Below, piece by piece: positions 13,181 through 64,000 of a stretch of DNA of 64,000 nucleotides. Source of the stretch: an uncultured Chloroflexia bacterium (GTDB taxonomy: Bacteria > Chloroflexota > Anaerolineae > Promineifilales > UBA4811); assembly GCA_963707345.1 (NCBI GenBank), contig CAVPPE010000003.1, positions 512,072-576,071 on the forward strand, read 5' to 3'. The notes under the pieces were generated by a model, which was not told the DNA's origin, did not search any database, and was given only the letters and a program-made list of their open reading frames with translations. The position numbers and the translations under genes were made by a program. Position 1 is the first letter of the stretch. Every line of letters starts with the position of its first letter.

Positions 13181-13243
13181 CACTGTACCTGGCCCCAAAC
13201 CGGCCGGGTACAGGCAACGCGCAAACGATCAAGGAGAGTTCTT

Positions 13244-14686: not shown

Positions 14687-14709
14687 CAGCATGCGTTTGG
14701 GAGTGTGGT

Positions 14710-34740: not shown

Positions 34741-36011
34741 AGCAGGTCTTGCTCCTCAAGCCAGTTGCGCATGGCCAGCATGGCATCCAGTGTCTCCTTG
34801 GGGATGTGCGGTTGCAGCAGCGGGTCGGCCGACATGGATTCCACCGCGTTCAACAGTTGCCAGGTGACCAGGTCGGCTGGCTCAATGCCCGCCAGTCCCT
34901 GGGCGGCCGAGAGCCCGTTGATGAGGCCCTGCACCATTTCCCACTGGGCCGCCGCTTCGGCCGACCGCTGGATGCGCTCCGCTTCAGCATCTCCAATTGC
35001 GCGCGTACTTTCTGCACGGGCAGCCCATTCCTTTTGCCAGGTGGCAATGCGTTGTTCCAACACCGAATCGGGGAAGGTGAGGGTGCCAAAGCCAGCCGCA
35101 ACCAACTCAATCCCGCGCTGCGTCAGATCGTTGCGCACGGCCGTCGATAGCAGTGACGCGAGAGCCAACCGCGGGGTTTGCTCTGGCGAGGTGGGGGCAA
35201 ACAACTGATCCAACCGGAAGCGGGCCATGATCTCCCGAAAGCGCGACACCGCTACCTGCAGGGCATAGTCGTCCCAGTGGTAGAGAGTATTCTCCGCTGT
35301 AGTTCCTTCCCGGCCGTAGACCACCCGGTGGACGGTTTCCCCTGACCATGGAAAATCATCTGACGCGCTGGTTGCGGTACTGGGCTGGATGCGAAACAGG
35401 CAAAAGACCATTGCTTCCAGCGGCACCCCATCCTTGGTGCTGGCCTTGACTTGGCTGGTGCGAATCTGTGTGTGCAGGTCCACCGGCGTTTTAATGCGCT
35501 CAAAGCGCCGGAGAAAATTGATCCCCGGTCCCACGACTCGCGAAAACATGGTTGCAGTTTGAAGCACGACCGCGTTGCCCACGCCCACCAGTATTACGCC
35601 TGTGCCCCATCGGGGGACCATGCTGGCGCGAACATCCCGCACGACCCTGTTGCCATCTACAACATAGCTGGTGAGGTGAAAGTTGAACAGGTAGGATGCC
35701 AGTGCCTGGGCAGCGCGCAGCCAACTGACCCCTTTGATGATGGGAAAGAGCGAGCGGGAGACCATGGTCAGGGAGACGGCAAAGAAGACCAGCGCCAGGG
35801 TTGGCGTCAGCAGGGCGCCCCCAAGCCCATTCCAGCGGCCGGCGATGATGGAAAGATACGCACACGCTGCTGACAGGATGGAGAGGCGAATCCAGGCTTC
35901 ACTTCGGCCGAAAAAGGGGCGGCCCAAAAACAGCACAAGCGCCGGCACGAGCGCCGCAATAGCCACAACCAGGAATTCCAGCCACTTCATTTCCGGTTTG
36001 CCTGACCCCAA
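34737..36011 (-). CDS. Divergent SPFH/band-7-like membrane protein (paralogue A)
   Basis: 424 aa with 3-4 N-terminal TM helices. Core VVGPGINFLRRFERIKTPVDLHTQIRTSQVKASTKDGVPLEAMV parallels paralogue B. Alternative ATG start at 35990. Confidence 0.7.
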   Translation of the reverse strand: MGSGKPEMKWLEFLVVAIAALVPALVLFLGRPFFGRSEAWIRLSILSAACAYLSIIAGRWNGLGGALLTPTLALVFFAVSLTMVSRSLFPIIKGVSWLRAAQALASYLFNFHLTSYVVDGNRVVRDVRASMVPRWGTGVILVGVGNAVVLQTATMFSRVVGPGINFLRRFERIKTPVDLHTQIRTSQVKASTKDGVPLEAMVFCLFRIQPSTATSASDDFPWSGETVHRVVYGREGTTAENTLYHWDDYALQVAVSRFREIMARFRLDQLFAPTSPEQTPRLALASLLSTAVRNDLTQRGIELVAAGFGTLTFPDSVLEQRIATWQKEWAARAESTRAIGDAEAERIQRSAEAAAQWEMVQGLINGLSAAQGLAGIEPADLVTWQLLNAVESMSADPLLQPHIPKETLDAMLAMRNWLEEQDLL

Positions 36012-44770: not shown

Positions 44771-45418
44771 ATGACAGATGAGCTTTCGCATCCCAATATC
44801 CCTGTGCCTGATGATCTCAAGGGAACGGTAACCCTCGCCACCTGGGAAAAGTTTTACAACTGGTGCCGAGCCCGCTCCGTCTGGCCCATGATGTTCGGCC
44901 TGGCCTGCTGTGCCATTGAGATGGTCGCCATGGCTACCTCGCGCTTTGACTTTGCCCGCTTTGGCATGGAGGTCATGCGCGCCAGCCCGCGTCAGGCTGA
45001 CCTGATGATTGTATCTGGAACGGTCACCAAAAAGATGGTGCCGCAGATTGTGCGTCTGTACAACCAAATAGCGGAGCCTCGTTACGTACTGGCGATGGGT
45101 GCTTGTGCCAGCGGTGGCGGGCCATTCAAAGAGGGCTATAGCGTTGTCTCTGGCGTTGACAAGTACGTCCCGGTGGATGTCTATGTGCCGGGATGCCCCC
45201 CCACGCCGCAGGCTTTGATCTACGGGTTTATCAAGCTGCACGAAAAGATCGAGAATCAGCCGCGCCAGGAATACACCTGGTACCAGAACCGCGGCCAGGG
45301 CGAGGTTATCCCTGTGCCCGTCCTGGGGCCAGATATTTTTGACCCGCGCCAGATTCCCCTCATCAAGGCCGAAACTGCCAAGGCGCGTGCAGCGGCCGCC
45401 GAGACCGACAGCGAATAG
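44771..45418 (+). CDS. nuoB: NADH-quinone oxidoreductase subunit B
   Basis: [36 protein letters not shown] and VPGCPP supply the four N2-cluster cysteines. Confidence 0.93.
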
Positions 45419-45434
45419 AGGAGAAGGTCCCCCC

Positions 45435-47216
45435 ATGAGCGAAAACTTGCATGTTGAAGCGGAAGCCTCCGAGCTGGAGACCAATGCAATAGAGCAGGCC
45501 TACCAGTTGCTGCAGCAAGAATTCCCCGGCAAGGTCAAGCCCGACGGCCGGGAAGGGTACGAGGGCGTCATTGTTGACGCGGACACGTTGCTGGAAGCGG
45601 CGACCTTTATGCGGGACAAGCTGGGCTTTGGCTATTTGTCGAGTGTCACTGGCGTGGATTACATCAACGACGGCTTGTTGGAATCGGTGTATCATGCGTA
45701 CAGCATGGAGGCCGCCGGGAGCGCATTGGTGTTCAAAGCGCAGGTAGCCCGCGACAACCCAGAAGTGCCCTCGCTGATCTCGGTTTGGCCGTCCGTCAAC
45801 TTCCAGGAGCGGGAAGCGTACGACATGGTTGGCATCCGCTATCAGGGCCATCCCAACTTGCAGCGTATTTTAACCTGGGAAGGATTCCACGGCTTTCCTC
45901 TGCGCAAGGATTGGAAAGAGCCGTACTTTGAAGAGGAACACAAGCCCTTTTCCAGCCGCCATCCCGAGGGGCATGTTTCCCGTGTCGAGGATCGCAATCC
46001 GTTTGGCAAGAATGTGCAATACCCACCGGATTTCGACCCAGACGAGTGGACAGAGGATATTGCCCAGCTTTCAGTTTACCAGACACTGGAGCGCAAGGCC
46101 CAGTCCGATGAGTTGGATACCGAGACATTGGTCATCAACCTGGGGCCGCAGCATCCCAGCACACACGGTGTGTTGCGCGTTGTTGCGGTGGTGGACGGGG
46201 AGACGATTGTTGACCTGATGCCGGTCTTTGGCTACTTGCACCGCAATCACGAGCAGATTGGCGAGCGATGTACCTTCCCCCAGATCACGCCCTACACGGA
46301 CCGGCTGGACTATATTTGCTCCATGTCCAACAACCTGGGTTATATCCTGGCGCTGGAAAAGTTGGTTGATGCCCGGCCGCCGGAGCGGGCAGAATACCTG
46401 CGCGTCATCATGGCCGAGTTGACACGCATCGTCAATCACATGCTGGCCATTGGCTTTCTGTGGAACGATGTAGGGGCCTTTTTCACCCCGGTGGTGTATG
46501 GTTTTAACGAGCGTGAGCTGATCCTTGACCTGTTTGAGATGGCGTCCGGTTCCCGCATGATGTGCAACTATATGCGGGCGGGCGGCGTGGCAGAGGACGT
46601 GCCGGATGGCTGGATGGAGAAGGCGCGGCCGGTGATCTTTGATCGCATGCCGCGTTTTGTGGATGAGTTGGAGCGGCTGGTCGTGGGCAACGAGATCTTT
46701 CGCGCCCGGTCGATCGGCGTTGGAATTCTTCCGCCAGAGAGGGCGATTGCGCTGGGAGCCACCGGGCCGTTGTTGCGGGGATCCGGCGTCCCGTACGACC
46801 TGCGGCGGGCAGAACCCTATTCCATTTATGACCGCTTTGATTTTGACGTAGCGGTGCGTTACAATGGGGACGTGTATGACCGTTTTATGATCCGGTTCGA
46901 TGAAATGCGCCAGAGCCTGCGGATATTGCAGCAGGCAATGAACCAGATTCCCGACGGCCCGATTCAGACCAGCAAGAAGAACTGGACCCTCAAAGTGCCG
47001 CCGGGCGAGGCATACCACCGGATTGAGGCCCCCAAGGGCGAACTGGGGTTCTATCTGGTCAGCGACGGCCGGTCGAACCCCTGGCGGTATCATGTGCGCT
47101 CAACCAGCATGATCAACCTGACGACGCTGGCAGAGATGTGCAGGGGCCACAAGATTGCAGATGTGGTGGTCATCCTGGGCAGCATCGACATTACTCTGGG
47201 AGAGGTGGACCGCTAA
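45435..47216 (+). CDS. nuoCD: NADH-quinone oxidoreductase fused subunits C/D
   Basis: ATG 45435. NuoC part ([19 protein letters not shown]). NuoD part ([15 protein letters not shown] ... [14 protein letters not shown]) with no NiFe-hydrogenase Cys ligands. Confidence 0.93.
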
Positions 47217-53473: not shown

Positions 53474-54192
53474 CTGAATACCGCGTCTTTCCGAATGCCA
53501 GTGCGGTTGCCGAGGCGGCGGCCAACCTCTTGGCGCAATTGGCTCAAGGTGCCGTGCGGGAGCGCGGCCGGTTTGCGGTCGCGCTGGCCGGGGGCAAAAC
53601 CCCTCGCGCGACGTACGCCCTGCTCGCCCGGCCGCCGTGGCGGGAGCAGATCCCCTGGCCGCAGGTGCACCTCTTTTGGGGGGATGAGCGCTGCGTCCCG
53701 CCGGATCATGACGCCAGCAACTACCGGCTGGCCCGGGAAGTGTTGCTGGATCACGTCTCGCTGCTGGCCGACCAGGTCCACCGCGTTCCGGGCGAACTGG
53801 AGCCGGAGGCGGCCGCGCAGGCCTATACCGACGAGCTGATGGTATTTTTTGGCGTGGATTGGCCCCAATTTGACCTGGTGCTGTTGGGGATGGGGGCCGA
53901 TGGGCACACCGCCTCCCTCTTTCCCAACTCGGCCGCCTTGCAGGTCCGTGACCGGCCGGTGGTGGCAGTGTCGGCCGACTACCAGGGGCGGCCGGCGGGG
54001 CGCGTGACGCTGACATTGCCGGCCATCAACGCGGCGCGGCAGGTGCTTTTTCTGGTGACCGGCGCGGCCAAAGCGGACGCCGTCAAAGCTACCCTGATAG
54101 AACAGGCCCCCCTCCCGGCCGCCATGGTTCGGCCGGAATCGGGGGGCCTGCTCTGGTTGTTGGACGCGGCCGCGGCCGGCCAGGTGGCCTAG
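53470..54192 (+). CDS. pgl: 6-phosphogluconolactonase
   Basis: [24 protein letters not shown] and [15 protein letters not shown]. 4-nt overlap with zwf. Confidence 0.9.
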
Positions 54193-57100
54193 CCGCCCAT
54201 CCGCGTCATAAAGTCCTGCACGTCCTTCTTGAACGTGCGCAATTCCTTCAGTTCCGTCTCCAGCTTGGCCACCTTGGGGGGGGCCGCTTCCAGCGTGGCC
54301 TGCTTTTGCTCCAGCGTCTGCAACTGCCCGCGCAAGGCAACCAATTCCTGATCCTTCTGCGCCAGCGTTGTTTTCATCTCCTCCAGCGATGTGCCGAGCG
54401 CTTCGACCTTGGCCGCAGCTGCCTGCTGTGCCTCGGTCTCCACGCGCACCACCTCGGCCGATTTGGGCGCATCCTCGGCCCGCACAAAGTAGCGGACCAC
54501 ACCATCCTGTTCGTAAAGCACCAGCCGGTCGCCGGCTGCAAAGGTTGCCGGCATCCGGCCGACCGCCTGCAAGTTCTTGAGCCCCAACGACGGATCGTAT
54601 TTCTCCACCCGCTCGATGGTCGCGTTGGCATCCTCGGCGTTTTCCAGCGCCTTTTCCAGCGGTTGATCCACCACCTCGTTCTTTTGCGCCTCTGCTTTTT
54701 CCTGCGGCCGGAAGAGGAGCTGGCCGACCTGACCGCCTAGCCAATCGCCGGTCACGTTCTGCGCCAGCTTGACCGTACTCACAGTCTCGGCCAACTTGCG
54801 TTGCAGCAAGCCGCTCTGTACGGCAGCCAGTCCAACGTTCAACTGGGTCGCCTTGGGCATGGCGGCCGCTTGAGCTTGCGTCCGCTTTTGCACAAAACCG
54901 GCCAGGAGATTGGGGAAGACCATGCAGCAGACCTGCTCCACTGCCCAATCCACAAGCGGGGTGATGGGGAGGAACGAGAGCCAGTAGCCCATGGTGGGGA
55001 AGCTTTTGACGTACTGGCGCTGGCTAAAGTTGCACACCTTGAACACTTCTTCGTCGCGCACCTGCACGGCCGCCAGATAAACCTCGTCTTCCTCACCGCA
55101 TTCGGGGCAGTTGACCAGCAGGTGATGGCAGAAGCAGTCCTTCAGGTACTGCACCAAACCGCCGATCAGCGCCACAAAGGCGGCAAACACCTTGGCCCGA
55201 TAGTCCACCAGCGCGTCGTAAAAGGCCTGGTTGCCGGGGATGGGATCGGCCGTGGCAGTCGGTTGCAGGTAGTCGGCCGAGACGACCGTGATGGTCCGGC
55301 TTACCCCGTTGAGGAAGTAGACCCGCTCGCCGTTCGGGTCCACGGCTATACCCATGGGGCCAATCTGCAGCGGCAGGACAAAGGGCGGCAGGTCGCCGGG
55401 CAGCACCGGGACCACCGTGTCGTTGGCCACCTCCACCAGCCCGGCCAGGAACCAGTCAGCGGCCGTGGCGATGAGGTACTCGCTGCCCGGCACGTGCGCC
55501 AGGCGAATCTGGGTGTCCGGCATATCCAATGTGGCCGACGGGTTTGCCTGGTGCCAAGGGAAGATGCACAACTTGCGGTCTTCGCTGCCCGCAACGCTGG
55601 CTACGGCGTACAGCTTGATGGCGTCGCCAAAGGGAACCACGGCGATGTCATCCCGGCCGGTGGTCTGTGCGCCCAGCGATGGCAACTGGTAGGTAAAGGT
55701 GACCGTAAAGTTGCTCCAATCGATCTCCAGCACCTGGTCAAACTCGACGCCGGCCGGGGCGTTTGCGCTGGCGGCCGAGGCAAAAGCCCGCTGCACATCA
55801 TCTGCAAGGACCAGGTGGCCGGCCGCTTTGAAGGGAGTCACCAGTTTGATCGTCGGCTGGCTGTCGTTTAGCTTGCTGATGAGAAACAGCCCGCTTTCCT
55901 CTCCCCGACCCACTGCCAGTAGCCGGTCTTTGAATTTACCCGGCCGGGCCAGCGTTTTGAGCACCACGTCACACAGGATGGTGACCGGTCGCCATCTGTA
56001 CTCGCCGTCCTGGATTTCGGCGGCCGCAAAGACCGTGTTCTCGTTGTTCACGCTGCCGATGGCGTACAATTGCTCCCCGTCGGCCGAGAAAGCAACATCC
56101 TGCACCACCAGCCCTTCGCCGCCGGGCATCTCCACGATCTTGACCAGCTCTTCCTTGCGCAGGTCAAAAACGTGAATCTCGTCATCATAGCCCACCGCGT
56201 AGCCGGCCGCGCCACTGGGATGGATTCGCAAACGGGTGTGCGGGCTGAGGCCAAAGATGGTGGACATCTCGATGTCTTCAAAGGGATAGTCCGGGAACTG
56301 GGGCGCGTCGTCAAACATCGCGCAAAAGGTTTTGCTCTGCAGCACATCGCGGAGTTGGAAGTAGAGCCGCCGCAGGATGTCATCTTCCTTGTCGGAGAGG
56401 TAAACGTGCTTGCCAAAGAGCGGATACGGGAACTGCACCAGCAGGTTGACCAGCGTGATGAGCTGTTTCCAGCGGGCGCTGACCAACCCGCCTTCGTCGT
56501 CATCGGCGGCCGCGCCGGTCAGCAACTCGATCAACTCCTTGAATGGTTCGGCAATACAGTCGCGGTAAAAGTCCGCCAGGATACTCCCCTTGAGCCACTG
56601 TTCCAGCGGGTTTTTGTTGGGAGTGTAGGGGCGCACGTCTACCTGCGGCTGGCCGTTGGCGTCCAGTTCGATGACCAGGGAGAATTCGCCGTAGCGCTTG
56701 CCATCCTTTTCCTTCAGCAAGGGCTGGTTGGGATGGGCGGCCTCCCAGGCTTGCACCAATTCCAGCACCGGGACCGACAGGTTCTCGTCCAGCACCAGGT
56801 CCCGCCCTTCGCAATCCAGCGCGTAGCCCGGCCGCACGATCACGGTCACCCGATCGCTCACCACCTCCGGGTCATCCTCGCACTCTACCTGCAGGCCGCA
56901 AACGACCCCCCAGCCGTGCAGATGTTTGTTGTGATGGCTCAGGTCGCGCAGGGCGCACAGTTGGTCCAGCGCCTCCTGTACGGTGGTCGCGTTGACCGCG
57001 TCACAATTGCTGTCGTCGTAGCACACATCCTCCGCGCAAATTTTGGTGAGCGGCGGAAAGTGCGGCCGGCAATCCTCGACGGTGGAATCGGCCCATTCCT

Positions 57101-58289
57101 CACCCTCGTCGGCCGTGGTGTCCTCCGCCCACGTGATTATTGCCAGCCTGCAAAAGTGGTGTTCCACCCCTTGCGGCGGGGCGGCGCTCAACTCGTCGAT
57201 CTTGCCGGTCGCGGTGCGGGCGGCAAAGGTCCAATAATCGCCAGGCTGGAAATCCGCACCAGAGAACGCGATCTGGACCCCATCCTCCAGCAGAATCGGC
57301 CCGGCCGCGACGGGAATGACGTCGCTGCCCTGATCCCAGCGCCGCACCCTGGCCCCGGTCCCGGCCGTCACCGCCCGGTCCAGCGTCAGGACGCGCTGGG
57401 CCGCGTCGACCTGGTTGATCTTTGCCATCGTTCCGGGCCGCAGCCAGAGGTCGTCAGCCTCATCCAGCACCTCCACCCAGTCGCCCGGCTGCAAGGCCAG
57501 CACCTGGTCCCGGCCGAGCTGCTTGAGCTGCACCTTGGTGGGTTCGGCCGGGAGCATGTCCTCCACGGCATAGACCACCGCGCCATTGTCGCGCGACCAT
57601 TTAAAGGTGGCAGCCCCCATCCCATCGCCATCGTGGATCTCCACCCGGTAGAGTCGGTTTTCCAGCCCACGGTAGCCACCGCCGGCCGGGATCAGGCACG
57701 GATCGGCTGCACCGGGGTCGATCAGCACGCTGGTGGTGAGCTTGCCGCGCTGATCGAGCGGCGGCACCGGCGGCCAGGGGTCAAACTCGCCCTCGCAGTC
57801 GGTCTCCTCCACCCCCGGCCGGACGCGCACCTGCCACACCGTTTGCAGGCGGGTGGTGGTGTCCGCGCCGCCCAGCGCCGGCTCCAGCAGTTCCGGATCC
57901 TCTACGGCCGTCACGTGCCGCTGCCAGATGTCCAGATAGACCAGGTCGACCCGGCCGTCCTGCGGGTTCAACGCCGGCGGGTTTGGTAGGTCGGGTTGGC
58001 TGGCATAGCTGTCCCCCTCAGCCACGCAAACGATGCCGCCAGCGTACAGCCGGCCGTCGGTCAGCGTCAGGTCGTCCCCGGCTGGGGTGGGGGTCACCCC
58101 AAAACCGGCATCGAACTTGGGCACGCCGCACTGGCCGATGACGTCGGTGGCGCGGGTCTCATCCAGGTATGCCTGGATGGCGGCCGACTCGTTCCAGTCA
58201 GCGTCCAGGTCCACCCGGCCCTGCTGCTTCAGCACGCGGGCGAATGGCTTCTTTGGGTCAAAGGTAAAACGTGTGAAATCCCCTTTCAT
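54189..58289 (-). CDS. 1366-aa multidomain protein in the tail-fibre slot of a phage-tail-like locus
   Basis: Uninterrupted 4.1-kb ORF, 13 nt downstream of the gpI-like gene. N-terminus FDPKKPFARVLKQQGRVDLDADWNE...GYRGLENRLYRVEIHDG. Propeller-like strands (IAVDPNGERVYFLNGVSRTITVV). DCFCHHLLVNCPECG. C-terminal heptads. See findings. Confidence 0.8.
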   Translation of the reverse strand: MKGDFTRFTFDPKKPFARVLKQQGRVDLDADWNESAAIQAYLDETRATDVIGQCGVPKFDAGFGVTPTPAGDDLTLTDGRLYAGGIVCVAEGDSYASQPDLPNPPALNPQDGRVDLVYLDIWQRHVTAVEDPELLEPALGGADTTTRLQTVWQVRVRPGVEETDCEGEFDPWPPVPPLDQRGKLTTSVLIDPGAADPCLIPAGGGYRGLENRLYRVEIHDGDGMGAATFKWSRDNGAVVYAVEDMLPAEPTKVQLKQLGRDQVLALQPGDWVEVLDEADDLWLRPGTMAKINQVDAAQRVLTLDRAVTAGTGARVRRWDQGSDVIPVAAGPILLEDGVQIAFSGADFQPGDYWTFAARTATGKIDELSAAPPQGVEHHFCRLAIITWAEDTTADEGEEWADSTVEDCRPHFPPLTKICAEDVCYDDSNCDAVNATTVQEALDQLCALRDLSHHNKHLHGWGVVCGLQVECEDDPEVVSDRVTVIVRPGYALDCEGRDLVLDENLSVPVLELVQAWEAAHPNQPLLKEKDGKRYGEFSLVIELDANGQPQVDVRPYTPNKNPLEQWLKGSILADFYRDCIAEPFKELIELLTGAAADDDEGGLVSARWKQLITLVNLLVQFPYPLFGKHVYLSDKEDDILRRLYFQLRDVLQSKTFCAMFDDAPQFPDYPFEDIEMSTIFGLSPHTRLRIHPSGAAGYAVGYDDEIHVFDLRKEELVKIVEMPGGEGLVVQDVAFSADGEQLYAIGSVNNENTVFAAAEIQDGEYRWRPVTILCDVVLKTLARPGKFKDRLLAVGRGEESGLFLISKLNDSQPTIKLVTPFKAAGHLVLADDVQRAFASAASANAPAGVEFDQVLEIDWSNFTVTFTYQLPSLGAQTTGRDDIAVVPFGDAIKLYAVASVAGSEDRKLCIFPWHQANPSATLDMPDTQIRLAHVPGSEYLIATAADWFLAGLVEVANDTVVPVLPGDLPPFVLPLQIGPMGIAVDPNGERVYFLNGVSRTITVVSADYLQPTATADPIPGNQAFYDALVDYRAKVFAAFVALIGGLVQYLKDCFCHHLLVNCPECGEEDEVYLAAVQVRDEEVFKVCNFSQRQYVKSFPTMGYWLSFLPITPLVDWAVEQVCCMVFPNLLAGFVQKRTQAQAAAMPKATQLNVGLAAVQSGLLQRKLAETVSTVKLAQNVTGDWLGGQVGQLLFRPQEKAEAQKNEVVDQPLEKALENAEDANATIERVEKYDPSLGLKNLQAVGRMPATFAAGDRLVLYEQDGVVRYFVRAEDAPKSAEVVRVETEAQQAAAAKVEALGTSLEEMKTTLAQKDQELVALRGQLQTLEQKQATLEAAPPKVAKLETELKELRTFKKDVQDFMTRMGG

Positions 58290-58302: not shown

Positions 58303-60390
58303 TCACGTCACGTAAATGATCCCTGGCTCCAGGCCAAAGGGCAGGTACTCTTCCAATCGGATGCGCAAATTAGTCTCCCGCTGCGGCTGCATCAGGCTGC
58401 AAAACGCGCCCATCTCCGAGCCATCGGCCGCGCCGGTGCGAATCTCGTCCGGGCAATCGTGCCCCAACTGGCCGTAGCCCGGATCGCCGTAGTGGGTAGA
58501 AGTATAGCTGGGGCGCAGGCAGGCCAGGATGGCAGTGTGCTGGGCGGCCGGGGCCTTGTCCAGCGCCAGGTCTGGCTGGCAGCGGTAGCGGCGCGGAGTG
58601 GTGGAGCCGTCCGGCACAAAGCTTAAGCGGACGCAGCCGTTTTGCCGGCGGGCCGCCCGGACTTGACCGTCGAAAATGCACTCGGATGCGGTCAGCTCTT
58701 TGACGTACACTTCGCCCCAAAAGGTGGAGCGTTCGGCCGTGGTGGGAGGCCCCGGCCGGGTGGCCTCGTCGTTGGCGGCGATGGCCGGCTGCGGCAGATG
58801 GCCCACCGGCAAACCCTGCACCATGCTGTCGCGGATGGTCAAACTCTCACAGTCGGCCGGCAAGCGCAGCGGGCCGGTGATGCTCTTGTCAATGGTTACT
58901 GCCAGGTCGGCCGAGCGGCTGCCCACCAGCGTCAGGCTGTCCAGGTCCGGGAAGCGGGGCCGCCCATCTTCACGCAACAGCCGGCCGGGCACTAGCGTGC
59001 AGTGCGCCAGAGTCAGCTTCAGGTCGCCCTTCAGCCGCAGCGCCCCGCCGATCAGCAATCCGTTGAGCGTCAATTCGGCATCGCCGGCCGGCGCGCTGAG
59101 CACCGGCTGACCCACCGGCAGCACCACCGGCCGGAAGCCGTTCTTGGCCTCGATGACCAGCTTGCCATCGGCCGGCAACTGGATGTTGAACAGCCCCCCG
59201 TAAACGCCATTGTCCACAATCTGGATGACGGCTGGCGCCTTGCTGTGGGTCACCTCCCACTCATTCAGCCCATCCTGCAGCGTGCGATTGGGCAACTGCT
59301 TGCCAACCTGGATGAGCACCAGCCCGCGCCGCCCGGCCGCCAGCGATTCCTTTCGGTCGTACGGGCCGCCGCCCATCTCGGCGCTAAAGCCGTAGGTCAT
59401 GTCCACCGTCACTGCGCGCGGGGCGATGCCGGCCGGAAAAGCGATCCGGCCGTGGCGCACATCCACCGCCACCTTGCCGGCCGGGGGGTCTCCCCAGGTG
59501 GAGAGGTCCTGGCAGACAATCTCGGAGAGCGGGACCAGGTCCAGTGGGTCGGCCGTGGGGCCGCGGTAGATAGCCAGGCTTTTGCCCGGCCCGTAGAAAT
59601 CGGCCGGCCGGAAGTAAAAGGCGGCCGGGCGGATCGGGCCGGGGACGTGCAACTCGGTCGCCAACTGGTCGGCGGCCGCCTCCCGCTCCGGGTTGGTAAA
59701 GAGCGGGGCGGGGTTGCCCAGCGGGCTAAAATAAAAGCCACGCGAGAAGCTGCCAGAGCGCCGCGCCGGAACCCCCGTCATGGGGAACTGGCTTAACCGC
59801 CAGAGGAAAAAGTTGATCTTGCGGATGTTGTGCCGGCCGACCCGCTGATCGGCCGGGCGCACATCCACTGTGTGGCAAAGGGTGTCAAACGGCCCATCCA
59901 GCCGGTCCGCGGCGTCCATCTCCCGCAGGTTGACCGTTCCCACCCGGCCGATGGCGTGTGGGAAGCGATGGTCCGGGTTGGCCGCCGTTGTGTAGCGCAA
60001 ATGGTTGACGTTCTGGGTCCAGCCTAGGTTCTCAAAGGCCGCCACCGCGTGCGCACCCCAGTTGGTCACGTCGCGGGCCAGCTCTTCCAGCATGGGCAGC
60101 ACCCCCTTGCGCCGCCGGTAAGAGATGGTCTTGGCGACATCGGCGCGGCGCCCCTGGATGATCTCGTAGAGCGGATTGTTGCCCACCAGATCGCCGATGT
60201 AGGGGATCACCCAATCTGCACAGGTCTCAATAAACAGATCGTCCCACAGGCCGTCAACGTCCCGCTTGAGGATGTCCACCTGCTCCGCGACAATTTCCAG
60301 CAGCGCACGGAGTGGATAGCCTTGCTCGGCGTCGCGCATACGGTAGACGGCCGGGAGCAACTGATACAGGTCCACAGCTTTATCGCTCAT
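58303..60390 (-). CDS. Phage-tail-like baseplate protein (P2 gpI / Afp12 / gp7-position, TIGR02242-like N-terminus)
   Basis: LYQLLPAVYRMRDAEQGYPLRALLEIVAEQVDIL...ETCADWVIPYIGDLVGN. ATGA overlap with the upstream gpJ-like gene. Confidence 0.8.
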   Translation of the reverse strand: MSDKAVDLYQLLPAVYRMRDAEQGYPLRALLEIVAEQVDILKRDVDGLWDDLFIETCADWVIPYIGDLVGNNPLYEIIQGRRADVAKTISYRRRKGVLPMLEELARDVTNWGAHAVAAFENLGWTQNVNHLRYTTAANPDHRFPHAIGRVGTVNLREMDAADRLDGPFDTLCHTVDVRPADQRVGRHNIRKINFFLWRLSQFPMTGVPARRSGSFSRGFYFSPLGNPAPLFTNPEREAAADQLATELHVPGPIRPAAFYFRPADFYGPGKSLAIYRGPTADPLDLVPLSEIVCQDLSTWGDPPAGKVAVDVRHGRIAFPAGIAPRAVTVDMTYGFSAEMGGGPYDRKESLAAGRRGLVLIQVGKQLPNRTLQDGLNEWEVTHSKAPAVIQIVDNGVYGGLFNIQLPADGKLVIEAKNGFRPVVLPVGQPVLSAPAGDAELTLNGLLIGGALRLKGDLKLTLAHCTLVPGRLLREDGRPRFPDLDSLTLVGSRSADLAVTIDKSITGPLRLPADCESLTIRDSMVQGLPVGHLPQPAIAANDEATRPGPPTTAERSTFWGEVYVKELTASECIFDGQVRAARRQNGCVRLSFVPDGSTTPRRYRCQPDLALDKAPAAQHTAILACLRPSYTSTHYGDPGYGQLGHDCPDEIRTGAADGSEMGAFCSLMQPQRETNLRIRLEEYLPFGLEPGIIYVT

Positions 60391-63071
60391 GTTTCACCTG
60401 TCAGTCCAAGTGTGATGGTGATATCGGCCGCGGCCAGTGTCGCCAGTTCGTCAAGCCAGATGGCCAGGTGGGCTTGCACCGGGTCGACCGTCGCGCCGTG
60501 GCTGGCTCGATCGGCCGGGCTCTTGAATTGCAGCCGATTCACTTCCACCGCCTCCACCCCCTCCACCTCCTGCACCACGCGGTACACGTCGCTCAGGTGG
60601 ATGGGTTGGCCCAGGTTCAGGTTGTCAAAATCAAAATAATCAGCCAGAGTCGATTGGGCGGCCGCTTGCACCGTCTCGGTCTGGTAACTGGCATCCAGCT
60701 TGATGGCCGCCTCAATTTGCAGCGCGACCGGGTGGTAATCGCTCACGATCAGCTTGCGGTTGGGGTCGCGCCGGCTGTCCAGGTCGGCGACCAGGTTTTT
60801 GTGCGTATCGCCGCCCGGCTCGACCGGCGCGCCGTCGTCACCCGCTACAGTGAGCAGCACAACCTGCTCCATGCCATCCCACTGCCAGCTAGCGCGTGCC
60901 TTGGCGATGCCGGCATAGGCGCGAGCCGCATCCTCAAAGTCGCGCAGGGAGACCACCCGCTCAAAGGTGCGGACGGTGTTGGGGGCGTTGGTGCGGGCCT
61001 GTGCCAGGCTCTCCGGTTCGGCACCCCCGGCCGCCGCGGCCGGGTTGGTGGCCGATTTGAGGCCAGTGGGTTTGTCCAATAGGGTGGTCAGCACCCCGGC
61101 CGTGATGTTGCCATCCTGCCCGATCCCTTGCCGGTAGTTGCCGATGACGTTGTTGCGGCCGGTGGGCAAACGCGCCCCGGTGGTCCCGTCGCCAAACTGG
61201 ATGGTCATCTCGCCCTCGTCGTCGACACGGGTCACAAAGACCCGCTCGTCGGCCGGCCGGCCGTAGAGCGAATCCCGCTCCTGCCATTTGACGCCGTCCA
61301 CCCGTATCTGTAGAGTGTTTGCCGCGCCGTTCTTGGCCCCCGCCTGGGGGACAAAGGTGACCGGCGACTTTTTGAGCGCAAACGACTGGAGTCCCTGGCT
61401 GGCGTCGCCGCTACCCAACACTTCGTCTGCTACGGTTTCGCCGTGGGTGACGAGCACCACGTTGGCCCGGCCGGTGGCCGTGGCGCTGACCAGCGAATCC
61501 TGCAGCGCGTCCGCCAGCGTAATCTTGAGGTGGTCTCCTTCTACCGCGATGCTGCTGATTTTGCTGGCCTGCGCCCGGCCGGCCCCATCCTCCAAAATGA
61601 TCCGCCGGCCGGAGACCAGATACTGGGCGCGTTCGGCCGCGGTCAACCCCAACTCGGACAGGGGCACATAGACTGCATTGCCGCTGATGGTGGGGCCGTA
61701 TTGGGATTGCCACAATGAGATAGGAGGGCCTTCCAGTTCGTAGACCACGGCCGAGCGCACGTCGATGCCGATGGGTAGTTGCGGCGACACGGCGACCCGC
61801 GTGACGGTGGCTTGCATGACGGGCGGTCCGGTCCCGCTGGTGGGGATCTGTGCGGCAACCTGCTCGACGGCGGTCACCGTCACGGTTTGGACCACCGCGC
61901 CGTTTCTGAGCTTGCCGGCCACCAGCAGCTCGGTGTTCTCTTTCAAATCGTCGTACACACCATCCAGTTGTAGCAAGGCGTAACCGGCCGTGTACGGATC
62001 AAAGCTCTTTTCCTGCCAGAGCACGTTGTTGTGGCTATCCACGCTGACGGAAAAGAACTTAGCCGGGGCGTTGTGACCAAAAAGGCGGAACTTGCGCGTC
62101 CATTTGTGGATCTTGGCTCCGGCCGAAAAGCTGCAGCGCACGGCCGGTTCCCAGGTGATCTCCTGCCGCCAGTCCACTTGCTGGATGTCCGCTACTTCTT
62201 TGTCCTCCACATGGACCGGGTTATCGCAGCCGGTGTAAACCGGTGTGATTTCAATTCCAGGTATGGGCGCTTTCTCTGCCTTTTCCAGTAAATCATCTTC
62301 CATCTCGGCCAGCAGTTCCTGAATGCGGTGCCGGGCTTCCTTTACCTGCTTGCTCACATGGTCAGCCATCTCACCCAGGCCCAGGTCAACGGTGGGGCCT
62401 GCCATGGCCTGAACAAGAACGGGCTGGTAGATGACGATCTTTTCCCCGGCCGCCAGGTAGCTGATGTCCCCCAGCGCGGTGGCTACGGTTCGCCCGGCCG
62501 CCAGTGGCGTATCGGCAGTAGGCTGGGGGTAGACGCGGAAGTGGTTGAGCGGCGGTATGACTGTCAGCGTCTCAACCGTCTCGAATTTCTGCGGTTTCTC
62601 GTCTTGCCCCGGCACGCTCTGCGCCCGCAGGCCGATGGGAATCACCACCGTTTTTCCCTTGTCCACGGTAAAGGCCAGTTGAGTGGTGGCGGCCATGCCG
62701 TTGGCCGGCCGGTAGTCGAGCAGCGCTGCCAACCGCAACACCGACTCGCGGTGCACCGCTGTGCGCAAGTACGCCTCGTTGGCAATCCGTTCCTGGTAAA
62801 AGGTCAGGATATCGGCCAGGTAAGCCCACATCTCCAACAAGGCAATACCAAAATCGTCACTCTGGCGGGAGGTCCAGTCGTTCAGCGGCCGGATAGGTTT
62901 GTGCCCTTGCTCCGGCGTGATTTTGGTCCCGGCGATCGCTTGCAGCATCGCCTGGCGGAAGGTGGGGTAGCTGCCCACCCGGTAGACGACGGCCGAAAGG
63001 CCCGGCCGGTTATCCATGCATTCGGGCGTCGGGGGAACCGGCGCCTGGCAACAGCCACACGAGTCGCTCAT
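60387..63071 (-). CDS. Baseplate J (gpJ/gp6/Afp11)-like putative baseplate assembly protein
   Basis: N-terminus MSDSCGCCQAPVPPTPECMDNRPGLSAVVYRVGSYPTFRQAML. gpJ-type motifs NYRQGIGQDGN and GGAEPESLAQARTNAPNTVRTFERVVSLRDFE. Confidence 0.85.
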   Translation of the reverse strand: MSDSCGCCQAPVPPTPECMDNRPGLSAVVYRVGSYPTFRQAMLQAIAGTKITPEQGHKPIRPLNDWTSRQSDDFGIALLEMWAYLADILTFYQERIANEAYLRTAVHRESVLRLAALLDYRPANGMAATTQLAFTVDKGKTVVIPIGLRAQSVPGQDEKPQKFETVETLTVIPPLNHFRVYPQPTADTPLAAGRTVATALGDISYLAAGEKIVIYQPVLVQAMAGPTVDLGLGEMADHVSKQVKEARHRIQELLAEMEDDLLEKAEKAPIPGIEITPVYTGCDNPVHVEDKEVADIQQVDWRQEITWEPAVRCSFSAGAKIHKWTRKFRLFGHNAPAKFFSVSVDSHNNVLWQEKSFDPYTAGYALLQLDGVYDDLKENTELLVAGKLRNGAVVQTVTVTAVEQVAAQIPTSGTGPPVMQATVTRVAVSPQLPIGIDVRSAVVYELEGPPISLWQSQYGPTISGNAVYVPLSELGLTAAERAQYLVSGRRIILEDGAGRAQASKISSIAVEGDHLKITLADALQDSLVSATATGRANVVLVTHGETVADEVLGSGDASQGLQSFALKKSPVTFVPQAGAKNGAANTLQIRVDGVKWQERDSLYGRPADERVFVTRVDDEGEMTIQFGDGTTGARLPTGRNNVIGNYRQGIGQDGNITAGVLTTLLDKPTGLKSATNPAAAAGGAEPESLAQARTNAPNTVRTFERVVSLRDFEDAARAYAGIAKARASWQWDGMEQVVLLTVAGDDGAPVEPGGDTHKNLVADLDSRRDPNRKLIVSDYHPVALQIEAAIKLDASYQTETVQAAAQSTLADYFDFDNLNLGQPIHLSDVYRVVQEVEGVEAVEVNRLQFKSPADRASHGATVDPVQAHLAIWLDELATLAAADITITLGLTGET

Positions 63072-64000
63072 TTTCCACCTAGCATGTTCAGGCGCAGCAC
63101 GCCGTGTTCCTGAAAATTGGGGTCGTTATCCAGCCGCGCCACCTCCAGGCGACCCAGCGGGATGTACCCCTGATCCAATTCGCTATTGGCCGCCTTGCCA
63201 AACCGTTGAAATAGCTTCACCTCGGCCGAATCTACCCCTTCCACCGCCTCCACGGCCGCATACAGCTTGCTCAAATATACCGACTGCCCAAAGGTCCACT
63301 GGTCGGGGTGGAAAAAGCCACCCGGCCGGTTGCTGAGCGCCTTGAGAACTGCCTGTTGGACGTGAGCCCGGAAATGGGTCGGCGCCACGCAGACGTCGAT
63401 CTCGATCTCTAGCGACACATAAGTTGGCGGGTCGATCTCCAAATCGTAGCCGGCCTGAGTAAAGCGGCGCACCCAGGCCTTGATTCGCTCCTGCAACGCC
63501 GCGGGCAGATCGGCCCGGCCGACCGGGTCCACGGTGATAAAGACGGTGTGCCAACTCCCGGTCCAGCGAAAGGTGGCCACCGCTTTGGAGACATCAGGGT
63601 GTTTTCCGGCCGCCCGGGCGTAATCCGCCTCGGTGACCGCTCGCAACTGCTCAGCGTGGAAGGCGGCCGGGGCCAGTTGTTTTGCCTGCTCGATGGGCTC
63701 CGGATCGATTCCGCCCCAGGCCGGCAGCGGGTTGCGCACGGCCGTCACGTCGGGCCAGGCAAGTGCGGCCGCCGGCCGGATCAGATGACTGAGCGCTTCT
63801 GCCCCCACGTTGCCCGCGCTGCCCACCCCGACCCGGTAGTCCACTCTCACATTGGCCTTGTCGGGCGGGGCAGCACCGTATTCGTTGTCGCCAAAGCGGA
63901 GCAGCGGCCGGCCGTCGTTGTCGGTCTCGACCGCAACGTGGTGGGCAAAGTCATCGCTGTCCAACAAATGGAGCACCGGTTGCCAGTCATCGGCCGGGGA
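63068..64000 (-). CDS. Baseplate J-like protein (C-terminal part; 5' end beyond the window)
   Basis: The frame stays open to 64000. DYRVGVGSAGNVGAEAL and GGIDPEPIEQAKQLAPAAFHAEQLRAVTEADY are gpJ-type motifs. ATGA overlap with the downstream gene. Confidence 0.8.
   Translation of the reverse strand, partial: SPADDWQPVLHLLDSDDFAHHVAVETDNDGRPLLRFGDNEYGAAPPDKANVRVDYRVGVGSAGNVGAEALSHLIRPAAALAWPDVTAVRNPLPAWGGIDPEPIEQAKQLAPAAFHAEQLRAVTEADYARAAGKHPDVSKAVATFRWTGSWHTVFITVDPVGRADLPAALQERIKAWVRRFTQAGYDLEIDPPTYVSLEIEIDVCVAPTHFRAHVQQAVLKALSNRPGGFFHPDQWTFGQSVYLSKLYAAVEAVEGVDSAEVKLFQRFGKAANSELDQGYIPLGRLEVARLDNDPNFQEHGVLRLNMLGGK

What the first reader, a model, noticed from the sequence alone, without database searches (positions are those of the whole stretch)
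54189..58289. 1366-aa terminal protein with an architecture unlike a tail fibre
It occupies the fibre/receptor-binding slot but shows no fibre repeats. Modules I can see: (1) A conserved N-terminal domain, aa 1-380 (QQGRVDLDADWNE, GYRGLENRLYRVEIHDG). I recall this as a DUF found next to such baseplate genes, possibly DUF6519, but cannot verify that here. (2) A segment with 7 Cys between aa 407 and 470. (3) A beta-propeller-like region at about aa 680-1005 (IHPSGAAGYAVGYDDEIHVFDL, VAFSADGEQLYAIGS, IAVDPNGERVYFLNGVSRTITVV). (4) Two hydrophobic stretches (aa 1034-1048 and 1100-1131) flanking a Cys/His knot DCFCHHLLVNCPECG (DNA 55095-55139). (5) A ~75-aa heptad coiled coil at the C-terminus (DNA 54210-54437). 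Hydrophobic stretches plus a metal knot plus a coiled coil suggest an anchoring or adaptor role, such as tethering the particle to a membrane or an oligomeric scaffold, rather than a simple receptor-binding fibre. That would make this a non-canonical injection system.
Basis: partly seen in the sequence, partly recalled or inferred. Interest (0 to 1): 0.8.

Follow-up and report, generated by a model that had tools for sequence, protein, structure and literature searches.

The report
Conserved non-fibrous baseplate adhesin of an injection system
The 1366-residue protein is the "tail-fibre slot" protein of a phage-tail-like injection system in an Anaerolineae-type bacterium: it has a known baseplate-anchor domain joined to a globular distal part, conserved across phyla, that includes a propeller and a cell-wall-binding-type (PASTA-like) domain, and it has no membrane anchor.

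Summary
DUF6519 is confirmed (Pfam E=4e-58). This domain was described in 2026 as eBAP5, a baseplate-anchor domain of eCIS tail-fibre candidates.

The rest of the protein is globular, not fibrous:
- a Cys/His-rich neck;
- a helical and Cys-rich domain that carries an inserted 7-bladed beta-propeller;
- a terminal coiled coil of about 85 residues.

The distal part occurs only together with DUF6519. It is always the last gene after two baseplate-J genes and a gpI/Mu-gp48-like gene (41-51 of 41-51 informative metagenome loci). It has no relatives in 2.9 million viral contigs. It is as conserved as the core baseplate proteins.

The two hydrophobic stretches are not transmembrane helices: they carry conserved charges and prolines, and no window in 120 homologues is favourable for insertion. 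Three cysteine pairs are gained and lost together, which suggests disulfides and an extracellular working environment.

Most likely this is a trimeric baseplate adhesin that resembles, in its N-terminal fold and C-terminal domain type, the tripod protein of phage 812 and binds a conserved envelope ligand, possibly peptidoglycan. The membrane-tether idea is not supported. I rate it a new variant of a known kind, of moderate interest.

The parts
57090..58289 (-). aa 1-400: DUF6519 / eBAP5 baseplate-anchor domain, with the inserted beta-barrel and beta-sandwich typical of eBAP5
   Evidence: Pfam DUF6519 E=4e-58. The AF2 model has mean pLDDT 84.7. Foldseek matches phage 812 baseplate chains 9euj_G/9eui_Q/9euf_0 at E 3e-8 to 6e-6, and more weakly TssK, lactococcal phage p2 RBP and tCIS 7b5h_AA. 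Among viral models it matches phage RBPs and DUF4815 tail proteins. Homology with a shorter DUF6519 protein (L001) ends at aa ~422.
56760..57089 (-). aa 401-510: Cys/His-rich neck (C407, C418, C423, C429, C445, H453, H456, H458, C464, C470, C493). It contains the motif HNKHLHGWGxVCGL...PGYAxDCEG.
   Evidence: Conservation is 97-100% for most Cys and His residues. NCBIfam CIS13_fam positions 31-81 of 392 match in 23 of 23 family members, E down to 6e-10, but at ~35 bits against a cutoff of 370. There is no PDB sequence relative. Monomer pLDDT is low (47-69), which would fit an element that is ordered only in the oligomer.
56268..56759 (-). aa 511-674: beta strands plus helices, forming the first half of a composite domain that hosts the propeller. 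C578 and C656 are invariant.
   Evidence: AF2 secondary structure. Conservation. Cys at the alignment column next to aa 537 co-occurs with Cys at the column next to aa 1074 (73 both, 30 neither, 18 discordant; Fisher p=7e-13).
55278..56267 (-). aa 675-1004: 7-bladed beta-propeller of YVTN/YncE/WD40 type, inserted into the composite domain
   Evidence: AF2 pLDDT mostly above 90. Foldseek matches 7-bladed propellers at E~1e-12, with YncE 7seu_D at TMt 0.78. Sequence match to 1l0q YVTN repeats.
54870..55229 (-). aa 1021-1140: long helix, CxC(D/H)H...CxxC cluster, beta hairpin, and a hydrophobic Pro-punctuated helical segment with an invariant CC pair. This is the most conserved distal element.
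   Evidence: Identity to homologues is 49-67% per 30-residue block, and 7 Cys are 98-100% conserved. There is no relative in PDB or Pfam. It is not TM-like. In 1.84 billion representatives it is found only in this architecture.
54690..54869 (-). aa 1141-1200: poorly conserved, low-confidence helical linker
   Evidence: Identity is 15-17%. pLDDT falls to 37-39 just before the PASTA-like domain (aa ~1180-1199) and is 55-76 earlier in the linker.
54480..54689 (-). aa 1201-1270: PASTA-like alpha/beta domain
   Evidence: Pfam PASTA matches 19 of 27 family members at E up to 1 (best E 1.1e-5); the window's own copy gives no hit. The family profile hits the PASTA repeats of the protein-kinase entries 3m9g and 3py9 at E 7e-6 and 2e-5. 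AF2 pLDDT is 84-96. A profile hit is found in 65 of 78 independent metagenome copies.
54198..54458 (-). aa 1278-1364: C-terminal coiled coil in two helices, broken at a Pro-Pro
   Evidence: AF2 helices. Heptad test, 0 of 2000 shuffles reached the observed value. Homologues have a post-PASTA tail of median 115 aa with 57% E/K/Q/R/L/A.
58303..60390 (-). 695-aa upstream gene: probable gpI / Mu gp48 / TssG-type wedge adaptor that would carry the DUF6519 protein
   Evidence: It ends 13 nt before the DUF6519 start codon. The N-terminal 200 aa weakly match Pfam Phage_Mu_Gp48 (E=0.0087, below the cutoff). A homologue lies directly upstream in 47 of 47 informative loci.
60387..63071 (-). 894-aa baseplate J-like wedge protein (Cis11-like)
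   Evidence: Pfam Baseplate_J E=4.6e-16 and TIGR02243 E=3.6e-71. Present upstream in 41 of 41 informative loci.
63068..64000 (-). second baseplate J-like gene, cut off by the end of the window
   Evidence: TIGR02243 E=2.7e-53 over profile positions 399-658. The reading frame is open to base 64000. Homologous loci have an ~805-aa gene here.

Best explanation
The protein is the distal baseplate protein, in the fibre slot, of an eCIS-type contractile injection system carried in the chromosome of an Anaerolineae-like bacterium.

Shown here:
- The N-terminal ~420 residues are the DUF6519/eBAP5 anchor.
- The remaining ~950 residues form a fixed cassette of globular modules: neck, composite Cys-rich domain with an inserted 7-bladed propeller, PASTA-like domain and coiled coil.
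- That cassette is found only in this architecture.
- The gene always follows two baseplate-J genes and a gpI/Mu-gp48-like gene, and it is as conserved as those core genes.
- It has no transmembrane segment.

Inferred:
- It assembles as a trimer through the shoulder-type N-terminal domain and the C-terminal coiled coil.
- It docks on the gpI-like adaptor.
- It works outside the producer cell after release. Three Cys pairs are gained and lost as pairs, as disulfides are, and the CxC...CxxC cluster probably binds zinc.
- It fastens the baseplate to a conserved component of a target cell envelope, using the propeller and the PASTA-like domain. The ligand is most plausibly peptidoglycan or a peptidoglycan precursor.

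Functionally it resembles the tripod proteins of Staphylococcus phage 812, which are large trimeric baseplate complexes with glycan-binding modules and a C-terminal peptidoglycan-binding hook. It does not resemble a thin receptor-binding fibre.
For: - Domain identities.
- Full-length conservation in 120 homologues from Chloroflexota, Acidobacteriota, Armatimonadota and Bacteroidota.
- The distal cassette is exclusive to DUF6519 proteins. There are 743 representative hits. 58 of 64 long hits start at the DUF6519 N-terminus, and the short hits are mostly colinear fragments (three, P0250, P0181 and P0153, have long unaligned N-termini)..
- Stereotyped locus. In metagenome loci DUF6519 is upstream in 51/51, the 695-aa gene in 47/47 and baseplate J in 41/41.
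- eCIS hallmarks, an AAA+ ATPase and an eCIS_core protein, lie upstream in homologous locus L087. An eCIS_core protein lies beside another DUF6519 gene in L001.
- No relatives in IMG/VR viral contigs.
- The anchor/cassette junction is at aa ~420, where a shorter DUF6519 protein diverges.
- Paired Cys gain and loss: 54/380 (26 of 26), 418/423 (22 of 22) and the columns near aa 537 and 1074 (p=7e-13)..
- No TM segment.
- Literature: eBAP5 is proposed to bind Tail_P2_I-type adaptors by loops (PMC12923769). Phage 812 tripod trimers dock on loops of an arm protein and end in a LysM-like hook (PMC13433997).
Against: - No multimer model could be run, so the trimer, and the docking on the 695-aa protein, are inferred.
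- The window's own PASTA-like copy does not reach Pfam significance by itself. The PDB hits owe their E-values to the sum of several repeats; the best single-domain E-value is 0.83.
- Receptor-binding parts of fibres normally evolve fast. This cassette is as conserved as the core baseplate, which could instead point to a structural or self-directed partner.
- eCIS particles are assembled in the reducing cytoplasm, so disulfides would have to form after release.
- The sheath and tube genes of this particular locus lie outside the window.
Confidence: 0.55

Rival explanations
1. Structural or regulatory periphery of the baseplate. The conserved cassette would not define target specificity. It would bind another part of the particle (sheath, neighbouring copies, spike cage) and stabilise the pre-firing state or transmit the firing signal. 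The coiled coil would link neighbouring copies into a ring or scaffold.
For: - The distal modules are as conserved as, or more conserved than, the core baseplate proteins of the same loci. Median best-HSP identities are neck 51%, knot 54% and propeller 33%, against baseplate J 41% and the 695-aa gene 35%.
- There is one copy per locus and no cassette swapping within the subfamily.
- The knot has no relatives outside this architecture.
- In phage 812, tripod fibre domains bind neighbouring tripods to stabilise the contracted baseplate.
Against: - In the wider DUF6519 family the part after aa ~420 is exchangeable (PMC12923769), as expected for a distal, outward-facing module.
- In the literature as I recall it, PASTA domains and YVTN/YncE-type propellers are typically ligand-binding or surface domains.
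- The identity figures are biased upward for the knot, because the loci were found with knot patterns.
Confidence: 0.2
2. One reading: an intracellular tether. The protein would attach the particle to the producer's cytoplasmic membrane or envelope, like Cis13 of the thylakoid-anchored CIS or CisA of Streptomyces, giving a cell-bound mode of action.
For: - It occupies the same slot as Cis13 and CisA (PMC8894136; PMC12237407).
- It has a C-terminal helical coiled coil, as Cis13 has.
- It shares a ~50-residue motif with NCBIfam CIS13_fam.
- It has a conserved, moderately hydrophobic segment, YWLSxxPxxPxxxxAxExxCCxxxP, with KD up to 1.9 in some homologues and low monomer pLDDT.
- Its conservation suggests a conserved, possibly self, partner.
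Against: - No TM helix is found in the query or in 120 homologues. The hydrophobic segments carry conserved charges and three prolines.
- The coiled coil ends without a hydrophobic tail.
- The CIS13_fam match reaches only ~35 bits against a cutoff of 370. The neck profile does not hit the 7b5h chains.
- The paired Cys pattern suggests disulfides, that is, an extracytoplasmic working environment.
- In the literature as I recall it, PASTA domains of known proteins act outside the membrane.
Confidence: 0.12
3. An ordinary tail fibre or receptor-binding protein of a prophage with a contractile tail.
For: The N-terminal fold matches phage baseplate and RBP proteins. The neighbours are phage-type baseplate genes.
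Against: - No relative of the distal module is found in 2.9 million viral contigs, against 132 in metagenome contigs.
- The flanks are housekeeping genes (zwf, pgl, M20 peptidase, nuoCD).
- The homologous locus has an Afp15-type AAA+ ATPase and an eCIS_core protein.
Confidence: 0.03

Closest known systems
eBAP5 (DUF6519) tail-fibre candidates of extracellular contractile injection systems (Nachmias et al., Nat Commun 2026, PMC12923769)
   Same: The N-terminal DUF6519 domain is well above threshold. The gene lies directly downstream of baseplate-J and gpI-type genes. The anchor is modular, with an exchangeable distal part. The paper's source data already list DUF6519 proteins with PASTA or Lactonase (propeller) Pfam hits.
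   Different: The eBAP5 fibres described in that paper have macroglobulin-like shafts and beta-helix, lectin or haemagglutinin tips, and are presented as fast-evolving. They are reported as correlated with Actinobacteriota. Here the distal part is a fixed cassette of neck, Cys-rich domain with inserted propeller, PASTA-like domain and coiled coil. It is conserved across Chloroflexota, Acidobacteriota, Armatimonadota and Bacteroidota, and it is not discussed in the paper's main text.
Tripod protein (gp119) of Staphylococcus phage 812 and related Herelleviridae (PMC13433997)
   Same: This is the best structural match of the N-terminal 520 residues (9euj_G, 9eui_Q, 9euf_0; E 3e-8 to 6e-6). It is a large (>1000 aa) trimeric baseplate protein of globular domains. 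It docks on loops of an adaptor protein and ends in a peptidoglycan-binding-type domain.
   Different: That the matched chains are the tripod protein is my inference from their lengths and from which entries contain them. TM-scores are low (0.23-0.24), so only part of the fold matches. The distal domains differ: CBM16/61 sandwiches and a LysM-like hook there, against a propeller, Cys-rich domain, PASTA-like domain and coiled coil here.
Cis13 (All3316) of the thylakoid-anchored CIS of Anabaena (PMC8894136)
   Same: Both occupy the fibre slot, bind the baseplate through the N-terminus and have a C-terminal alpha-helical bundle. Cis13 is the precedent for a 'fibre' that tethers instead of targeting.
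   Different: Cis13 is short and ends in a transmembrane helix that penetrates the thylakoid membrane. This protein is 1366 aa and has no TM helix. There is no detectable sequence match to 7b5h chains with the neck profile.
TssK of type VI secretion, the receptor-binding-protein 'shoulder' domains of lactococcal phages, and Cis19 crown trimers of tCIS
   Same: Weak Foldseek matches over ~170-185 columns (6n38_A prob 0.82, 7b5h_AA prob 0.75, 5y0e_A E 6e-3). This agrees with the published statement that eBAP3-5 share a shoulder-like substructure.
   Different: E-values are marginal (6e-3 to 0.3). DUF6519 carries a ~200-residue insertion, and the distal parts are unrelated.
PASTA domains of PBP2x-type penicillin-binding proteins and PknB/Stk1-type kinases
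   Same: There is family-level sequence similarity over the whole ~65-residue domain, and the model shows a small alpha/beta fold of high confidence.
   Different: Here it is a single copy with an extra helix, in a protein with no signal peptide or membrane anchor, placed between a Cys-rich domain and a coiled coil. Ligand binding is untested. No paper in the searched library mentions both a contractile injection system and a PASTA domain.

Membership tests
DUF6519 / eBAP5 baseplate-anchor family | Match to Pfam PF20129 above the gathering score | tested here: met
   197.8 bits against a cutoff of 22.4, E=4e-58, in two stretches.
DUF6519 / eBAP5 baseplate-anchor family | Gene directly downstream of baseplate wedge genes in a CIS locus | tested here: met
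   In the window: baseplate J, baseplate J, the 695-aa gene, then this gene. The same order holds in L002, L003, L005, L006 and L087 and in 41-51 of 41-51 informative metagenome loci.
DUF6519 / eBAP5 baseplate-anchor family | Upstream adaptor of the Tail_P2_I type | tested here: inconclusive
   There is no Tail_P2_I hit. The N-terminal 200 aa of the 695-aa protein match Phage_Mu_Gp48 only weakly (E=0.0087, 16 bits against a cutoff of 37). There is no PDB sequence relative.
DUF6519 / eBAP5 baseplate-anchor family | Shoulder-like fold shared with TssK and tCIS Cis19 | tested here: inconclusive
   Foldseek gives TssK E 6e-3 to 0.3, prob 0.2-0.8, and 7b5h_AA E 0.11, prob 0.75. The matches to phage 812 baseplate chains are strong (E 3e-8).
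Classical fibrous tail fibre or tailspike (Afp13/Pvc13-like, beta-helix, triple beta-spiral) | Fibrous repeats or a beta-helical shaft over most of the length | tested here: not met
   The AF2 models show globular beta, alpha/beta, propeller and helical domains. There are no Pfam fibre or beta-helix families. Foldseek on the C-terminal model returns only propellers.
tCIS Cis13-type membrane-anchoring fibre | C-terminal transmembrane helix | tested here: not met
   The maximum 19-residue KD is 1.57. The Hessa-scale sum is at least +6.4 kcal/mol in the query and at least +3.0 in 120 homologues. The C-terminus is a charged coiled coil.
NCBIfam NF053767 CIS13_fam | Whole-protein score above the curated cutoff (370 bits) | tested here: not met
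   30-35 bits, covering only profile positions 31-82 of 392. It is a shared motif, not membership.
PASTA domain (PF03793) | Sequence similarity to the PASTA profile and to solved PASTA domains | tested here: inconclusive
   At family level the test is met. 19 of 27 members hit Pfam PASTA (best E 1.1e-5), and the family profile hits 3m9g and 3py9 at E 7e-6 and 2e-5. The window's own copy gives no Pfam hit at E<=1, and the best single-domain E-value against PDB is 0.83.
PASTA domain (PF03793) | Binding of peptidoglycan fragments, lipid II or beta-lactams | not testable with these tools
   Needs binding assays.
7-bladed beta-propeller (YVTN / YncE / WD40-like) | Seven four-stranded blades closed into a ring | tested here: met
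   29 strands at pLDDT above 90. Top Foldseek hits are 7-bladed propellers with TMt 0.64-0.78 for single-domain targets (0.45-0.52 for larger multi-domain chains). YVTN repeat match to 1l0q.
Extracellular contractile injection system (eCIS, Afp/PVC-like) locus | Sheath and tube, Afp15-type AAA+ ATPase, eCIS_core (DUF4157) proteins; no capsid genes | tested here: inconclusive
   The window ends inside the baseplate genes. Homologous locus L087 has an AAA+ ATPase with WHD, an eCIS_core protein, VgrG and gp25 upstream. There are no relatives in viral contigs. Sheath and tube genes were not reached in any locus.

The most novel reading that the evidence does not exclude
The conserved cassette may not be a target-cell receptor binder at all. 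It could be a peptidoglycan or lipid-II sensor, or a tether, that couples the particle to a bacterial cell wall. That wall could be the producer's own sacculus or ghost after lysis, or the inner face of the envelope through the conserved hydrophobic Pro-rich segment. This would define a further cell-wall-associated mode of action for CIS in Chloroflexota, Acidobacteriota and other environmental phyla, alongside T6SS, eCIS, tCIS and the CisA-dependent Streptomyces system.
Probability: 0.12. Interest if true: 0.8.

Novelty: new variant of a known kind. Interest (0 to 1): 0.45.

Why it matters
Almost nothing is known about what the many CIS loci of uncultured environmental phyla bind.

This subfamily comprises hundreds of 50%-identity clusters across at least four phyla. 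It carries one fixed distal cassette, not a fast-evolving fibre tip. That implies a conserved ligand or partner.

A PASTA-like domain on a CIS baseplate points to the bacterial cell wall. This makes a concrete, testable prediction: these systems target bacteria, or bacterial sacculi. The Afp, PVC and MAC systems characterised so far target eukaryotic hosts.

The cassette also contains a conserved Cys-rich domain with no relatives in PDB or Pfam. Structural work on it would yield a new fold or a new metal site.

For engineering, a compact, conserved, non-fibrous adhesin could be a useful alternative scaffold for retargeting.

Tried and rejected
- Exact look-ups. The window's own proteins (this ORF and the 894-aa gene) and the 100%-identical P0255 and P0377 were not found in the gene-position index. 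The rest of this genome's locus therefore could not be fetched.
- Genome-contig scan. I used the single protein as query, and it returned only one distant locus (L001).
- Cluster look-up. It gave no names or organisms.
- PDB and Pfam searches with profiles of the Cys knot and the neck found nothing meaningful.
- Foldseek on the C-terminal model was swamped by propeller hits.
- Model coordinates are not exposed. Cys-Cys distances, a possible Zn site and the packing of aa 511-674 against aa 1021-1140 could not be measured. I used co-occurrence of cysteines instead. That evidence is indirect and inflated by shared ancestry.
- tblastn with the PASTA segment found it in only 20 of 78 loci. A profile search raised this to 65 of 78.
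- Prophage fibre: rejected (no viral relatives, housekeeping flanks).
- Integral membrane protein: rejected (no TM).
- Member of the CIS13 family: rejected (score far below cutoff).
- Enzyme, for example a lactonase-type propeller: not pursued. The Pfam hits are only sub-threshold propeller families. Catalytic residues were not examined.
- The Hessa-scale values used were entered from memory of Hessa et al. 2005 and are position-independent. Treat that number as approximate.

Full report
**Observation**

The ORF 54189..58289 on the minus strand is real: ATG start, 1366 aa.

Seven Cys lie between aa 407 and 470. The Cys/His string DCFCHHLLVNCPECG is at DNA 55095-55139. The C-terminal ~80 residues have a heptad pattern that none of 2000 shuffles reached.

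The gene is the last of a minus-strand operon. Upstream are a 695-aa gene that ends 13 nt before its start codon, an 894-aa baseplate-J gene, and a second baseplate-J gene cut by the window end. Downstream, pgl and zwf converge on it; the two stop codons overlap in the palindrome CTAG, and no terminator-like site lies between them.

The rest of the window is chromosomal housekeeping. The nearest named relatives of its G6PD are from Anaerolineae MAGs, at 74-78% identity.

**Domain anatomy**

- **aa 1-~400.** Pfam confirms DUF6519 at 197.8 bits, E=4e-58.
- **N-terminal model (aa 1-520).** Built on 68 sequences; mean pLDDT 84.7. Its best PDB matches are three chains of the phage 812 baseplate (E 3e-8 to 6e-6). 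Weaker matches go to TssK, the lactococcal phage p2 receptor-binding protein and the Cis19 crown trimer of the Anabaena tCIS. Among viral models it matches a Lactobacillus phage RBP, DUF4815 phage proteins and tail fibres. I infer that the phage 812 chains are the tripod protein. They are longer in the pre-contraction entry (1082 residues) than in the post-contraction entries (821 and 908), where the paper says the tripod's anchor and hook are unresolved.
- **C-terminal model (aa 380-1366).** Mean pLDDT 81.9. It shows:
  - a low-confidence Cys/His-rich neck;
  - a beta-plus-helix region (aa ~480-674);
  - a 7-bladed propeller (aa 675-1004, pLDDT above 90; Foldseek to WD40/YncE; YVTN repeats);
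  - a long helix running into the Cys cluster, a beta hairpin and low-confidence hydrophobic helices (aa 1021-1140);
  - a poorly conserved linker;
  - a confident small alpha/beta domain (aa 1201-1270);
  - two helices (aa 1278-1364).
- **PASTA-like domain (aa 1201-1270).** 19 of 27 family members hit Pfam PASTA at E up to 1 (best E 1.1e-5). A family profile hits the PASTA repeats of the protein-kinase entries 3m9g and 3py9 at E 7e-6 and 2e-5. The window's own copy is sub-threshold.
- **Neck motif.** The neck contains a ~50-residue motif, HNKHLHGWGxVCGL...PGYAxDCEG. It matches positions 31-81 of NCBIfam CIS13_fam in all 23 members tested, but at about a tenth of the family cutoff.
- **Cys knot.** It has no relatives in PDB or Pfam.

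**Family and context**

A sequence search found more than 5000 relatives. The best 120 are all long (1258-1793 aa) and cover 70-100% of the query at 34-52% identity. They come from Anaerolineales, Herpetosiphonaceae, Acidobacteriota, Armatimonadota and Bacteroidales. All modules are conserved, and the knot (49-67% identity per 30-residue block) is as conserved as the DUF6519 core.

I searched aa 1010-1280 against 1.84 billion representatives. This gave 743 hits. 58 of the 64 long hits begin at the DUF6519 N-terminus, and the short hits are mostly colinear fragments (three, P0250, P0181 and P0153, have long unaligned N-termini). The cassette therefore appears exclusive to this architecture.

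In 80 metagenome loci found with knot patterns, the following were upstream on the same strand wherever enough sequence was available:

| Upstream element | Loci with it / informative loci |
|---|---|
| DUF6519 N-terminus | 51 / 51 |
| 695-aa gene | 47 / 47 |
| Baseplate J | 41 / 41 |

The PASTA-like profile was present in 65 of 78 complete tails. No relative exists in 2.9 million viral contigs.

Five annotated homologous loci show the order VgrG, base_V, small protein, gp25, J-like, J-like, 700-1000-aa gene, DUF6519 gene. Unrelated genes follow. One of these loci, extended upstream, adds an AAA+ ATPase and an eCIS_core protein.

A shorter DUF6519 protein from Terracidiphilus is homologous only up to aa ~422, right after the DCRxxFPPLT motif, and is followed by an eCIS_core protein. 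The anchor is therefore aa 1-~420, and the remainder is an exchangeable distal cassette.

**Is it a membrane anchor?**

The two hydrophobic stretches are real but weak. In the family consensus they read GVLEAFADLLGGLLQYLKDCFC and YWLSLVPIIPLIKKAVEKFCCAVLPDLF, with conserved acidic and basic residues and three prolines.

None of 121 sequences reaches KD 1.6 in the first stretch. The second reaches 1.6-2.2 in 38 of 121 and at most 1.93 in the metagenome copies.

A position-independent Hessa-scale sum is at least +6.4 kcal/mol for the best window of the query and at least +3.0 in 120 homologues, against -5.4 for a model TM helix (scale values from memory).

There is no signal peptide, and the C-terminus is a charged coiled coil. 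Integral membrane anchoring of the kind seen in tCIS Cis13 is therefore not supported. Peripheral membrane contact by the second segment cannot be excluded.

**Cysteines**

Twenty-two of the 24 Cys are conserved.

Three pairs are gained and lost together:
- C380 is absent in 26 homologues, and all 26 also lack C54.
- C418 and C423 are lost together in 22 of 22-23 cases.
- Two Cys columns that the query lacks (next to aa 537 and aa 1074) co-occur in 73 sequences, are both absent in 30, and are discordant in 18 (Fisher p=7e-13)..

Pairwise behaviour is what disulfides show; four-ligand metal sites do not behave this way. I therefore infer that the protein works in an oxidising, extracellular setting.

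The 537/1074 link also suggests that the regions before and after the propeller form one domain, with the propeller as an insertion.

The invariant CxC...CxxC group is a plausible zinc site.

**Mechanism**

The best-supported reading has four parts.
- The N-terminal shoulder-type domain trimerises and docks on the gpI/Mu-gp48-like adaptor. That adaptor matches Phage_Mu_Gp48 only weakly. The literature proposes loop-mediated docking of eBAP5 on Tail_P2_I proteins.
- The distal cassette projects from the baseplate.
- After release of the particle, the propeller and the PASTA-like domain bind a conserved envelope component.
- The coiled coil holds the three chains together or links neighbouring copies.

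The closest functional analogue is the phage 812 tripod, a large trimeric baseplate complex with glycan-binding modules and a peptidoglycan-binding-type C-terminal hook.

What argues for caution is the conservation. The cassette evolves no faster than the core baseplate genes of the same loci. That is unusual for a receptor binder and keeps a structural or trigger role, or a self-directed tether, in play.

**Comparison with what is known**

DUF6519 was described in January 2026 as eBAP5, one of five baseplate-anchor domains of eCIS tail-fibre candidates. It was found in 658 genes, with macroglobulin-like shafts and beta-helix or lectin tips.

The paper's source data contain DUF6519 proteins with PASTA or Lactonase Pfam hits. 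Its main text mentions neither PASTA, nor coiled coils, nor this architecture. No paper in the searched library links CIS and PASTA.

The protein is thus a member of the eBAP5 class by its defining N-terminal domain and gene position. It is not a classical fibre, not a Cis13-type anchor and not a CIS13_fam member. Its distal cassette is an undescribed, widely conserved variant.

**Verdict**

The membrane-tether and 'non-canonical system' claims are not supported.
- Novelty: new variant of a known kind.
- Interest: 0.45.

Noticed in passing
window 54189-54192: The stop codons of the convergent genes pgl (+) and the DUF6519 gene (-) overlap in the palindrome CTAG. The two genes share 4 bp at their 3' ends, with no intergenic space and no terminator-like site between them.
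   Followed up: partly
window 63068-64000 (-): The first baseplate-J-like gene is open to the last base of the window, so it is truncated by the window end. Homologous loci have an ~805-aa gene there. The rest of the CIS locus (gp25, VgrG, ATPase, sheath, tube) lies beyond base 64000.
   Followed up: partly
window 11723-16146 (+): Three tandem paralogues of the MttB (trimethylamine methyltransferase) family, of 485, 480 and 478 aa, lie upstream of an Opp-type ABC transporter with an SBP_bac_5 binding protein.
   Followed up: no
window 33307-36011 (-): Two adjacent SPFH/Band-7 genes (477 and 424 aa), overlapping by 4 bp.
   Followed up: no
window 45339-47216 (+) and 4-3450 (+): A fused NuoC-NuoD (30 kDa + 49 kDa) subunit gene, and a 1148-aa protein with three GAF domains and a SpoIIE-type phosphatase domain.
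   Followed up: no
homologues P0001, P0003-P0006 (~1540-1570 aa) and P0028-P0047 (~1645-1790 aa): The closest homologues carry an extra ~90-residue insertion just before the neck, and some have a precomputed SBP_bac_5 Pfam hit. The Bacteroidales-type homologues carry an additional BNR/Sortilin-type (PSII_BNR) propeller. The cassette therefore accepts insertions while keeping all other modules.
   Followed up: no
L001 10001-15592 (Terracidiphilus MAG): A short (841 aa) DUF6519 protein shares only aa 1-422 with the query. It is followed by a DUF6734 protein and an 820-aa eCIS_core (DUF4157) protein. This is an example of the same anchor with a different distal part and an adjacent putative effector.
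   Followed up: partly
L087 1-4603 (homologous locus in a 3.76-Mb genome): Upstream of VgrG lie an AAA+ ATPase with a winged-helix domain and a 505-aa eCIS_core protein. Downstream of the DUF6519 gene is a DUF2079 protein (651 aa), whose possible link to the system was not examined.
   Followed up: no
window proteins vs the public collections: Proteins 100% identical to the window's G6PD and 894-aa baseplate protein exist in the protein collection, on an 844,962-bp NCBI/ENA contig. They are absent from the gene-position index, as is the DUF6519 protein, so the source contig could not be read beyond the window.
   Followed up: yes
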